Assembly: GCA_000004985.1 (NCBI GenBank)
Contig: GG739441.1
Source of the DNA: Naegleria gruberi
Lineage: Eukaryota
DNA length: 1,356 nucleotides
Reading direction: 5' to 3' (one strand)
Shown: positions 1 through 1,356 of the stretch, piece after piece
Layout of the letters: every line of letters begins with the position of its first letter
Numbering within the stretch: the stretch's first letter is position 1
Notes under the pieces: model-generated
The model's database searches: none
Told to the model about the DNA's origin: nothing
The model's input: the letters and a program-made list of their open reading frames with translations, nothing else
Made by a program: the position numbers and the translations under genes

Positions 1-324
1 ACATACTCAGTGTCCACAACAAATCCAAAGCCCAAATCCAATAAGCAAAACACAACCAATCGAATCAGCCATCTATCCCCATCCATTGATTTTGATCTTC
101 CCTCTAGTTATGAATATTCACTGAAAATTATGGAATTGGAACAGAAGAAACATGTACCACATAGTCATTTCTACCAAGATGGCTCCTCATTTGGTGATGA
201 TGATGAAAACTATCCTTACAGTGAGGATGAAGAGTATGATGATGGAATGTATCACATCCCAGAAAGTCATCAATCTCGATACATTCCCTCAGACAGTTCT
301 TTTTCAGATATGGATAGTTTTTAA
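1..324 (+). CDS. 3' end (C-terminal ~107 aa) of a protein-coding gene, truncated at the left edge. The product is an uncharacterised acidic, Ser/Asp/Glu-rich C-terminal tail (…DGSSFGDDDENYPYSEDEEYDDGMYHIPESHQSRYIPSDSSFSDMDSF*).
   Basis: Frame 1 is open from base 1 with no stop in 1-9 through to TAA at 322-324. The track ORF 10..324 is the same frame, and its leading 'M' is really a GTG Val codon, so the true start lies upstream of the window. The region has coding-like composition, while the 3' flank is AT-rich with A-rich/AATAAA-like motifs at 409-414 and 433-438, consistent with a yeast 3' UTR. A low-complexity acidic stretch encoded by GAT/GAA/GAG repeats lies at 193-245. I recognise no family. 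Confidence 0.55.
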   Translation, partial: TYSVSTTNPKPKSNKQNTTNRISHLSPSIDFDLPSSYEYSLKIMELEQKKHVPHSHFYQDGSSFGDDDENYPYSEDEEYDDGMYHIPESHQSRYIPSDSSFSDMDSF

Positions 325-443: not shown

Positions 444-477
444 CAGGAAACAAGATTTCAAATATATGAAGCGGTCT

Positions 478-488
478 TGACCGAGTGG
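478..488 (+). promoter_or_regulatory. Intragenic RNA polymerase III A box (TGACCGAGTGG)
   Basis: Matches the A-box consensus TRGCNNAGTGG at 10 of 11 positions, at tRNA positions 8-18. Confidence 0.85.
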
Positions 489-529
489 TTAAGGTGATTG
501 ACTAGAAATCAATTGGGGCGACCCGCACA

Positions 530-540
530 GGTTCGAATCC
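530..540 (+). promoter_or_regulatory. Intragenic RNA polymerase III B box (GGTTCGAATCC), the TFIIIC binding site
   Basis: Matches the B-box consensus GGTTCGANTCC exactly, in the T-stem/loop of the tRNA. Confidence 0.9.
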
Positions 541-554
541 TGTAGACCGCGAAA

Positions 555-661: not shown

Positions 662-1356
662 TTATTCTAAATACAAAATGAAGAAAATCAATAAAACTAT
701 AGTTAAATAAATATTTTGTGAAATCGTAAAAGCTAATGAAACACTCCTAGTTGATGGATTCACTGGAGGGAAATAAAAATGACTTTCGTCAAAATTATTG
801 CCTCCTTCTTTTGTGCATGTGCAGTATTGTTTCGAACAAGAAATTGAGTCAACAGTGCAATAGTAATATGGGTCATTTTTGTAATTCTTGAAACTTGGTG
901 TGATACTAATTGTCAAAGGATAATATTGATCAGGAATTGTTGAATTATCCAAGAATCCAAATCCTGTATGAAACACTGTGAATATCATTGAACAATTGCA
1001 AACACTTTCAGCACCGTCAGCATAAGGATACAAACCCCAACCAGAACCAACACCGATACATCTATTATCCAATGTTCTGTATCTAGCACGATATCCAAAG
1101 TAAATGTTTTGAATATCTGTTCTATCAGAAGTATTTCCTCTGTAGTAAGGTTTGTCCAATGAAACCTTCAACGAATAAATTTTACATCCCATAGCAGAAT
1201 TGACGAATTTTTTGGCTCCATCAATTTTTAAACCAATGGGTGCTGTATAATTTCTACTTGGAATAATCATAGTAACTGGATTATCACCAGATATCTCTAT
1301 TACAGAATCTGTTGGTATATCTTTAACATTGATCAATACATTTGCACAATTCACAA
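662..1356 (-). CDS. C-terminal 230 aa of a predicted secreted, N-glycosylated, Cys/Tyr/Gly-rich cell-surface protein with a C-terminal GPI-anchor-like signal. The 5' end is truncated at the right edge of the window and I cannot recognise the family.
   Basis: A 693-nt ORF is open to the window edge, and the track's leading 'M' is a GTG codon, so the gene continues beyond 1356. The stop is TAA (complement of 662-664). The C-terminus …NPSTRSVSLAFTISQNIYLTIVLLIFFILYLE has a polar spacer with small residues (S/A/N/G) that are candidate omega sites, followed by about 15 hydrophobic residues and then the end of the protein. That is the classic fungal GPI attachment signal architecture. Sequons are present at N-Y-T, N-T-S, N-C-S and N-S-T. 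There are 9 Cys, including two CxC motifs (CNC, CTC), and a high Tyr/aromatic content (KPYY, IYFGYRARY, LYPY, DPYYYC, HFYF). The - strand sequence downstream of the stop (complement of 552-661) is AT-rich with poly(A)-signal-like motifs. Confidence 0.85.
   Translation of the reverse strand, partial: VNCANVLINVKDIPTDSVIEISGDNPVTMIIPSRNYTAPIGLKIDGAKKFVNSAMGCKIYSLKVSLDKPYYRGNTSDRTDIQNIYFGYRARYRTLDNRCIGVGSGWGLYPYADGAESVCNCSMIFTVFHTGFGFLDNSTIPDQYYPLTISITPSFKNYKNDPYYYCTVDSISCSKQYCTCTKEGGNNFDESHFYFPPVNPSTRSVSLAFTISQNIYLTIVLLIFFILYLE

What the first reader, a model, noticed from the sequence alone, without database searches (positions are those of the whole stretch)
662..1356. GPI-anchored Cys/Tyr-rich surface protein whose domain runs straight into the anchor signal, with no family I can assign
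The - strand ORF ends in a textbook GPI signal: a small-residue omega region, a polar spacer, then about 15 hydrophobic residues to the C-terminus. Most yeast GPI cell-wall proteins, such as adhesins, Gas/Phr, Crh, Sod and CFEM proteins, have a long Ser/Thr-rich O-glycosylated stalk between the functional domain and the anchor. Here a structured-looking domain runs directly into the GPI signal with no stalk. It has 9 Cys with CNC and CTC motifs, many Tyr/Trp/Phe, a G-V-G-S-G-W-G glycine cluster and four N-glycosylation sequons. The Cys spacing does not match CFEM, and I see no GH16, GH72 or aspartyl-protease catalytic motifs. High aromatic content is typical of carbohydrate-binding surfaces, so a lectin or CBM-like, or cell-wall-remodelling, role is plausible but unproven. 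Only the C-terminal 230 aa are in the window, and the N-terminal region and signal peptide lie beyond 1356.
Basis: partly seen in the sequence, partly recalled or inferred. Interest (0 to 1): 0.5.

Follow-up and report, generated by a model that had tools for sequence, protein, structure and literature searches.

The report
Naegleria orphan GPI-type surface glycoprotein
The ORF is a real gene, but it belongs to the amoeba Naegleria gruberi and not to a yeast; it encodes a small secreted, cysteine-bonded beta-sandwich protein with a GPI-anchor-type tail, from a tiny Naegleria-only family of unknown function, so the "missing stalk" is not an anomaly.

Summary
There is a 230-codon open frame on the - strand (665-1354, stop at 662-664), with 9 Cys, CNC and CTC, GVGSGWG, four N-x-S/T sequons and a 15-residue hydrophobic C-terminus.

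The context was wrong. The window is a 1356-bp contig of Naegleria gruberi (Heterolobosea). The ORF is the deposited "predicted protein" XP_002668022 (NAEGRDRAFT_77068).

Full-length relatives are only 249-262 aa. The window therefore lacks only the signal peptide of about 20 aa, not an N-terminal domain.

The family is tiny. I found five protein clusters among 5.8 billion, all Naegleria or Naegleria-like. There was no Pfam, NCBIfam or PDB sequence match.

The gene is under purifying selection (dN/dS 0.23-0.34).

The S-x-[A/G] triplet, 6-residue spacer and hydrophobic tail are kept even in a 33%-identical relative. This supports a GPI signal, although no formal predictor could be run.

An amoeba trophozoite has no cell wall, so the absence of a Ser/Thr stalk is normal.

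Verdict: an ordinary lineage-specific orphan surface protein, of low to moderate interest.

The parts
665..1354 (-). Coding sequence fragment, 230 codons. It is cut by the contig end, and about 20 N-terminal codons (signal peptide) are missing. It is the gene NAEGRDRAFT_77068.
   Evidence: open frame; 100% identity to XP_002668022/EFC35278.1, whose longest contig is 1356 bp; dN/dS 0.23-0.34 against paralogues
662..664 (-). Stop codon TAA
1346..1354 (-). Last three residues (V-N-C) of the signal peptide. They align with V-S-C, V-K-C and V-Y-C just before the predicted cleavage site in the full-length paralogues.
   Evidence: alignments; the cleavage site itself is inferred from the -3/-1 rule, not predicted by a tool
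875..1345 (-). Predicted beta-sandwich (jelly-roll-like) ectodomain, fragment residues 4-160. It carries all four sequons and four Cys (57, 99, 119, 121).
740..874 (-). Cys-rich C-terminal module C-x6-C-x4-C-x-C (Cys166, 173, 178, 180) plus a short Pro-containing linker, fragment residues 161-205. This is the fastest-diverging part of the protein.
   Evidence: the four Cys are conserved in all full-length members; low model confidence; dS 1.1-1.5
731..739 (-). Putative GPI omega triplet S206-L207-A208. The aligned triplet is S-L-A, S-S-A and S-V-G in the relatives. An alternative omega site is S204.
   Evidence: alignment. Assigned by the published small-residue rule for omega and omega+2. No GPI predictor was available.
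668..712 (-). C-terminal hydrophobic segment IYLTIVLLIFFILYL (15 residues). It follows the 6-residue spacer FTISQN (713-730) and is followed only by Glu230 (665-667).
   Evidence: Kyte-Doolittle mean 2.97 for residues 216-226; modelled as a helix, residues 208-229
1034..1054 (-). It is not conserved in the family.

Best explanation
The ORF is the almost complete gene of a small Naegleria gruberi cell-surface glycoprotein, about 250 aa as a precursor.

Proposed mechanism:
1. A cleaved N-terminal signal peptide takes the protein into the ER. This is seen in the paralogues. In the window only its last three residues are present.
2. A roughly 155-residue beta-sandwich and a four-Cys C-terminal knot fold there. 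They form 3-4 disulfides and are N-glycosylated at up to four sequons.
3. The C-terminal 24 residues act as a GPI-attachment signal. GPI transamidase cuts after Ser206 (or Ser204) and transfers the protein to a GPI lipid. The compact ectodomain then sits close to the outer face of the plasma membrane.
4. By analogy with the nearest folds (CUB and collagen-binding jelly rolls), the ectodomain is most likely a binding module for an extracellular ligand, such as substrate, prey or another cell, and not an enzyme.

The protein belongs to a very small, fast-evolving, Naegleria-restricted orphan family with at least two paralogues in strain NEG-M.

What is shown and what is inferred:
- Shown: organism, gene reality, family size, signal peptide in paralogues, conserved architecture.
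- Inferred: GPI cleavage, disulfide pattern, fold.
- Speculative: the binding function.
For: Organism and identity. The ORF is 100% identical to N. gruberi XP_002668022, on a contig of 1356 bp.

Full-length architecture. P0004 (249 aa), P0003 (262 aa) and P0006 (250 aa) all start with a basic n-region, a hydrophobic h-region and V-x-C. They all end in a hydrophobic tail.

Real coding gene. dN/dS is 0.23 (P0004), 0.33 (P0003) and 0.34 (P0006).

GPI-type signal kept across divergence. In P0006 (33% identity) the tail sequence is different (FVLLVMFICFVFTINV). The aligned S-V-G triplet, the 6-residue spacer and a 16-residue hydrophobic end are retained. There is no cytoplasmic extension: 1-3 terminal residues follow the hydrophobic run.

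Luminal or extracellular character. Each member has 6-8 conserved Cys and 3-4 sequons. Cys57 and Cys119 are both absent from P0006, as expected for a disulfide pair lost together.

No enzyme family. Nothing was found in Pfam, NCBIfam or PDB sequences.
Against: - No GPI predictor (big-PI, PredGPI, NetGPI) or SignalP could be run. The omega site was assigned by hand.
- I did not test for the GPI transamidase of Naegleria. The only support is a passing statement that GPI-anchored proteins are found in the Naegleria pangenome (PMC9928731).
- The tail is unusually well conserved among the three closest paralogues, at the nucleotide level as well. This is not typical of a cleaved and discarded GPI signal, and would also fit a retained membrane anchor.
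- The window itself does not contain the signal peptide.
- No expression or localisation data exist. None of the six accession and locus-tag identifiers searched (locus tags, RefSeq and UniProt) was found in the literature.
Confidence: 0.6

Rival explanations
1. It is a type I single-pass membrane protein. The C-terminal hydrophobic segment is not cleaved and stays as a transmembrane anchor with essentially no cytoplasmic tail.
For: - AlphaFold models residues 208-229 as one 22-residue helix.
- The tail is strongly conserved among the N. gruberi-type paralogues, with 18 of 19 and 16 of 19 identical residues and very few synonymous changes (dS 0.19-0.27 against 0.76-1.5 elsewhere for the pairs involving P0003). 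This fits a functional, retained segment better than a discarded signal.
Against: - The uninterrupted hydrophobic run is only 15-16 residues and is preceded by a polar S-Q-N or E-H-S. No basic stop-transfer residues or cytoplasmic tail follow it.
- A small-residue S-x-[A/G] triplet sits at the canonical distance upstream in all members, including the 33%-identical one.
- In that distant member the tail sequence itself is not conserved. Only its hydrophobicity is.
Confidence: 0.2
2. It is a secreted or cyst-wall/extracellular-matrix component. The protein is only transiently membrane-bound, through GPI or a hydrophobic tail. It is then shed or built into the cyst wall, where the aromatic-rich sandwich binds polysaccharide. 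This is the lectin idea of the first reader moved to Naegleria.
For: - The protein is Cys-rich, Tyr-rich, N-glycosylated and small with a signal peptide. From general knowledge this resembles amoebal cyst-wall lectins.
- Botulinum HA70/HA3 carbohydrate-binding sandwiches appear among the weak structural matches.
Against: - No match to any carbohydrate-binding module or lectin family.
- Only one Trp, and the glycine cluster is not conserved.
- The best structural matches are protein-binding modules.
- No expression data link it to encystment.
Confidence: 0.12
3. It is a fungal (yeast) GPI cell-wall protein of an unassigned family that unusually lacks the Ser/Thr stalk.
For: The AT-rich sequence and the GPI-like C-terminus are compatible with a yeast gene when read without tools.
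Against: - The contig and the ORF are N. gruberi.
- All relatives are N. gruberi proteins or unnamed environmental sequences 33-98% identical to them. No fungal protein was found among 5.8 billion clusters or among 1.84 billion representatives.
Confidence: 0.01
4. It is a spurious ORF or a pseudogene fragment on a junk contig.
For: - The contig is only 1356 bp and the gene is cut at its edge.
- One paralogue (L004) carries a frameshift.
Against: - The frame is open for 231 codons at a chance probability of about 2e-8.
- dN/dS is 0.23-0.34 against three relatives.
- Cys residues, sequons and the signal architecture are conserved.
Confidence: 0.02

Closest known systems
Generic protist and animal GPI-anchored surface glycoproteins without a stalk (for example Thy-1, CD59, Toxoplasma SAG/SRS, trypanosome surface proteins). 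This is a class, not a homologous family.
   Same: Signal peptide, a compact disulfide-bonded N-glycosylated ectodomain and a C-terminal signal made of small residues, a spacer and a hydrophobic end. The ectodomain sits within about 25 residues of the anchor.
   Different: No sequence or confident structural relationship to any of them. GPI attachment has not been demonstrated.
CUB domain (Pfam PF00431; meteorin, spermadhesins, neuropilin, MASP/C1r/C1s)
   Different: No Pfam CUB hit even at E<=10. Sequence identity is 3-9%. The domain is about 155 residues against about 110. The Cys positions are unrelated and no Ca2+-site motif was identified. The model confidence is only moderate.
Bacterial collagenase collagen-binding domain / PPC (pre-peptidase C-terminal) domain (ColG s3b, ColH, B. 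anthracis collagenase)
   Different: The Foldseek E-value of 0.055 is not significant. Sequence identity is 3-8% and there is no sequence-profile hit. The known domain is bacterial and Ca2+-dependent, without disulfides.
Fungal GPI cell-wall proteins (adhesins, Gas/Phr, Crh, CFEM)
   Same: Only the N-terminal signal peptide and the C-terminal GPI-type signal.
   Different: Different kingdom, no Ser/Thr stalk, no cell wall to span in the trophozoite, and no CFEM or glycoside-hydrolase match.

Membership tests
GPI-anchored protein (architectural class) | N-terminal ER signal peptide | tested here: met
   The full-length paralogues P0004, P0003 and P0006 begin MPRSPLNTFLLLSVLIVCVSC / MPKSLLNSYLLLLVLIVYVKC / (MSKLIIF)VYFILALLAFVYC. 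The window keeps only the last three aligned residues, V-N-C. This was read by eye. SignalP was not available.
GPI-anchored protein (architectural class) | C-terminal hydrophobic segment of about 12-20 residues reaching the C-terminus, with no cytoplasmic tail | tested here: met
   IYLTIVLLIFFILYL plus E, 15 residues, Kyte-Doolittle mean 2.97. The equivalent segments in P0003, P0004 and P0006 are shown.
GPI-anchored protein (architectural class) | Small residues at omega and omega+2, followed by a polar spacer of about 5-10 residues | tested here: met
   The aligned triplets are S-L-A, S-L-A, S-S-A and S-V-G. Each is followed by a 6-residue spacer (FTISQN, ITISQN, RPISQN, STIEHS) in the four members. 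The rule was applied by hand, with no trained predictor.
GPI-anchored protein (architectural class) | Positive score from a trained GPI predictor, and biochemical release by PI-PLC | not testable with these tools
   No GPI predictor or experiment was available.
GPI-anchored protein (architectural class) | The host organism has the GPI biosynthesis and transamidase machinery | not tested
The only support is a statement in the Naegleria pangenome paper that GPI-anchored proteins were found (PMC9928731).
Fungal GPI cell-wall protein | Fungal origin | tested here: not met
   Naegleria gruberi, Heterolobosea.
Fungal GPI cell-wall protein | Long Ser/Thr-rich O-glycosylated stalk | tested here: not met
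   At most 7 S/T per 20 residues, and a linker of 25 residues.
CFEM domain | Match to the CFEM profile with its eight-Cys spacing | tested here: not met
   No Pfam hit at E<=1 for the window protein or at E<=10 for any of six members.
CUB domain (PF00431) | Sequence-profile match | tested here: not met
   No Pfam hit. No PDB sequence hit with the family profile.
CUB domain (PF00431) | CUB jelly-roll fold | tested here: inconclusive
Collagen-binding / PPC domain | Sequence-profile match, or a significant fold match | tested here: inconclusive
Large variant-surface-antigen gene family (VSG, VSP and similar) | Tens to hundreds of paralogues per genome | tested here: not met
   Only two N. gruberi NEG-M proteins and three environmental clusters were found in 5.8 billion. 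There were three true hits among 1.84 billion representatives. The conserved tail 27-mer is absent from JGI metagenome contigs.

The most novel reading that the evidence does not exclude
The family could be a Naegleria-specific set of GPI-anchored, CUB-like surface receptors whose paralogues exchange segments by gene conversion. Synonymous divergence is mosaic: dS is 0.26, 1.24 and 0.27 along one pair of paralogues. The signal and anchor ends are homogenised while the membrane-proximal Cys-rich module diverges fast. This is the pattern expected of a recognition molecule under diversifying pressure, for example in prey, kin or mating-type recognition in an amoeba whose sexual cycle and surface receptors are essentially unknown.
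Probability: 0.12. Interest if true: 0.5.

Novelty: new member of a known kind. Interest (0 to 1): 0.22.

Why it matters
The practical value is mostly corrective.
- The apparent anomaly, a yeast wall protein without a stalk, disappears once the organism is known.
- Two deposited N. gruberi gene models appear to need repair. One is truncated at an internal Met. The other probably has an in-frame 39-nt coding stretch spliced out.

Biologically, almost nothing is known about the surface proteome of Naegleria, a genus that includes the brain-eating N. fowleri. A genus-restricted, probably GPI-anchored protein family is a modest candidate marker or recognition molecule. It is one of very many lineage-specific "predicted proteins". 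Nothing here points to a new mechanism.

Tried and rejected
Searches that found no family:
- Pfam on the fragment at E<=1 and on all six family members at E<=10 gave only noise: DUF4969 at E 0.16 and Spider toxin at E 1, each in one member.
- NCBIfam gave nothing.
- A profile search of PDB sequences gave only DNAJC10 at E 1.6, which is noise.

Searches for more relatives:
- A profile search of 1.84 billion representatives gave three true hits plus one repeat-ORF artefact, P0007.
- A second word-index search with the family alignment found no new members.
- A protein-pattern scan of JGI metagenome contigs gave nothing.
- An exact search for the conserved tail 27-mer in the same collection gave nothing.
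- A scan of viral contigs, to test for a link to giant viruses of Naegleria, gave nothing.

Structure:
- The AlphaFold model of the whole fragment, including the tail, had pLDDT 45 and was unusable. Its Foldseek search was non-significant.
- The AFDB Foldseek library was not available.

Other attempts:
- A look-up of P0002's genomic locus on the 747-kb scaffold failed, because the protein was not on record. Synteny in NEG-M therefore could not be examined.
- No flanking homology exists between the window and the paralogue loci. The match to L003 stops about 5 nt after the stop codon. The window is therefore a separate locus and not an allele.
- None of the six accession and locus-tag identifiers searched (locus tags, RefSeq and UniProt) was found in the literature.
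- Literature searches on GPI in Naegleria gave no direct biochemical evidence.
- A homology search with the left-hand + strand ORF found nothing.

Interpretations rejected: yeast origin, CFEM, glycoside hydrolase or aspartyl protease, tail-anchored protein, large variant-antigen family, spurious ORF.

Full report
**1. What is in the window.**
The - strand carries an open frame from the right edge of the window to a TAA at 662-664. It spans 230 sense codons at 665-1354. At 33% G+C, a frame this long stays open by chance with probability about 2e-8.

- Nine Cys, including CNC (119-121) and CTC (178-180).
- GVGSGWG at residues 101-107 (window 1034-1054).
- Four sequons: N35, N74, N120, N137.
- A C-terminus reading ...STRSVS-LA-FTISQN-IYLTIVLLIFFILYL-E.
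- No Ser/Thr-rich stretch.

Small corrections apply. There is one Trp, not many. Tyr (8.3%) and Phe (5.7%) are high, but the genome is AT-rich, which I infer contributes to this; I did not test it.

**2. Where it comes from.**
The fragment is 100% identical to "predicted protein [Naegleria gruberi]" (EFC35278.1 / XP_002668022.1, NAEGRDRAFT_77068, UniProt D2W6M4). The longest contig recorded for that protein is 1356 bp, the same length as this window. Naegleria gruberi is a heterolobosean amoeboflagellate in Discoba.

The deposited model has 202 aa and starts at the internal Met29, simply because the contig ends. The frame is open further upstream.

**3. The family.**
Three searches were run:
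- The fragment against 5.8 billion protein clusters.
- A profile against 1.84 billion representatives with no word index.
- The extended alignment against the 5.8 billion clusters again.

Together they found only five clusters:
- The window protein itself.
- NAEGRDRAFT_67833 (P0002, 236 aa, 77% identity, on a 747-kb N. gruberi scaffold), with its near-identical environmental version P0004 (249 aa).
- P0003 (262 aa, 63% identity).
- P0005, a 95-aa fragment of a fourth paralogue.
- P0006 (250 aa, 33% identity).

P0003, P0004 and P0005 come from one ENA assembly, ERZ929261. P0006 comes from another, ERZ27245887.

No relatives turned up in JGI metagenome contigs or in viral contigs. Pfam, NCBIfam and PDB sequences gave nothing. 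This is a genus-level orphan family.

**4. The gene is nearly complete.**
The full-length relatives begin with a typical signal peptide (MPRSPLNTFLLLSVLIVCVSC | VNVLINV...). The window's first residues, V-N-C-A-N-V-L-I-N-V, align exactly with the end of that peptide. Only about 20 residues are missing.

There is no further N-terminal domain. Cys3 is probably removed with the signal peptide, which leaves eight Cys in the mature protein. The distant member P0006 lacks both Cys57 and Cys119 and keeps the other six. This suggests that Cys57 and Cys119 form one disulfide (inference).

**5. It is a real, constrained gene.**
Nei-Gojobori dN/dS against P0004, P0003 and P0006 is 0.23, 0.33 and 0.34. 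DNA similarity to the paralogue locus L003 (87% over 705 nt) stops about 5 nt after the stop codon. These are therefore paralogues at different loci, not alleles.

**6. The C-terminal signal.**
All four full-length or near-full-length members share the same layout:
- A small-residue triplet: S-L-A, S-L-A, S-S-A and S-V-G.
- Six moderately polar residues.
- 14-16 hydrophobic residues running to within 1-3 residues of the end.

In P0006 the tail sequence is quite different, but this layout is retained. That is the behaviour expected of a GPI signal.

Together with the signal peptide, the Cys residues and the sequons, this excludes a cytosolic tail-anchored protein. GPI anchoring becomes the leading reading, with omega at Ser206 (window 737-739) or Ser204.

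Caveats:
- I could not run a GPI predictor.
- I did not verify the transamidase in Naegleria. A pangenome paper only mentions GPI-anchored proteins in passing (PMC9928731).
- Among the three close paralogues the tail is more conserved than the rest of the protein, at synonymous sites too. This keeps alive the rival reading of a retained transmembrane anchor with no cytoplasmic tail.

**7. The ectodomain.**
AlphaFold on the whole fragment with five sequences was poor, with pLDDT 45. On the mature domain alone it reached pLDDT 56 and pTM 0.57, with four of the five models at 53-56. The model has nine strands within model residues 3-156 and a low-confidence Cys-rich C-terminal 45 residues.

Foldseek gave the same classes without significance, with a best E-value of 0.055.

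I read this as a probable jelly-roll or CUB-like beta-sandwich. That is a generic extracellular binding scaffold, and the result is not evidence of family membership. No catalytic family is suggested.

The lectin idea has no specific support. The glycine cluster is not conserved, and aromatic richness is partly compositional.

**8. Why the "missing stalk" is not odd.**
Ser/Thr stalks let fungal GPI proteins span a thick cell wall. A Naegleria trophozoite has no wall, and from general knowledge GPI proteins of protists and animals commonly have their globular domain close to the anchor.

Here 25 residues, including a PP motif, separate the last Cys from the putative omega site. P0006 has a somewhat longer, Ser-rich linker.

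**9. Most likely mechanism, and confidence.**
The proposed sequence is:
1. Signal-peptide-directed ER entry.
2. Disulfide formation and N-glycosylation of a sandwich plus a Cys-knot.
3. GPI transamidation after Ser206 or Ser204.
4. Display on the plasma membrane as a ligand-binding module.

The architecture is well supported. GPI against a transmembrane anchor is about 3:1 in my judgement. The binding function is an analogy only.

**10. Novelty and score.**
The gene is already deposited, but as an uncharacterised "predicted protein". The domain belongs to no described family. The kind of protein, a small GPI-type surface glycoprotein of a protist, is ordinary.

A specialist would not be surprised by this. 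The finding is mainly a corrected context plus two gene-model repairs.

The one feature with some potential is the mosaic synonymous divergence among paralogues, noted below. Interest is 0.22.

Noticed in passing
window 471-551 (+): An intact tRNA-Ser(AGA) gene of 81 nt with a long variable arm. ARAGORN calls it, and Rfam RF00005 scores 61 bits. A T5 run follows at 556-560, which I take to be a Pol III terminator (inference). The gene ends 110 nt beyond the stop codon of the surface-protein gene and is convergent with it. None of the paralogue loci L001-L004 has a tRNA.
   Followed up: partly
window 1-324 (+): A second open frame runs from the left edge to a TAA at 322-324, 107 codons. Its product is acidic and rich in His and Tyr (…GDDDENYPYSEDEEYDDGMYHIPESHQSRYIPSDSSFSDMDSF). 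It is probably the 3' end of another gene cut by the contig edge. It has no Pfam hit, no homologue in the 5.8-billion-cluster search, and apparently no deposited gene model.
   Followed up: partly
L003 817-855, compared with protein P0002 (XP_002676939, NAEGRDRAFT_67833): The deposited 236-aa N. gruberi model lacks 13 residues (GLKIDGAKKFVNS). In the near-identical environmental copy these correspond to an in-frame 39-nt stretch that begins with GT and ends with AG. The stretch is translated and conserved in every other family member, including the window. There the equivalent stretch ends in TG instead of AG. The model probably contains a spurious intron.
   Followed up: yes
window 665-1354, compared with L001 152-940 and L003 645-1394: Synonymous divergence is mosaic along the gene. 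For the window against P0004, dS is 0.26 in the sandwich, 1.24 in the Cys-rich/linker part and 0.27 in the tail. For the window against P0003 the values are 0.76, 1.14 and 0.19. The last roughly 95 nt, including the stop codon and a few bases after it, are almost identical in three paralogues. This suggests gene conversion among paralogues or a nucleotide-level constraint on the 3' end. The segments are short (24-45 codons), so the statistics are weak.
   Followed up: partly
L004 207-723: A fourth paralogue, closest to P0003, changes reading frame after ...YYRGNSS. It continues in another frame as RTDIQNIFFADRVRYRYKDNQC… This is either a pseudogene or an assembly error in a 724-bp contig.
   Followed up: partly
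L001 1-60 and L003 about 532-590: The 5' flanks of two paralogues share a conserved block, GTGGATTTGACTGTATGGA(A)CGTTCCTTTCAYTTTGGATTTA, roughly 60-150 nt upstream of the start codons. The duplication therefore included upstream sequence that may be regulatory. This was seen by eye only. The window lacks this region.
   Followed up: no
L002 933-1616 (-): The locus of the distant relative P0006 has a convergent 227-aa ORF that overlaps the 3' end of the gene by about 17 nt. It was not characterised.
   Followed up: no
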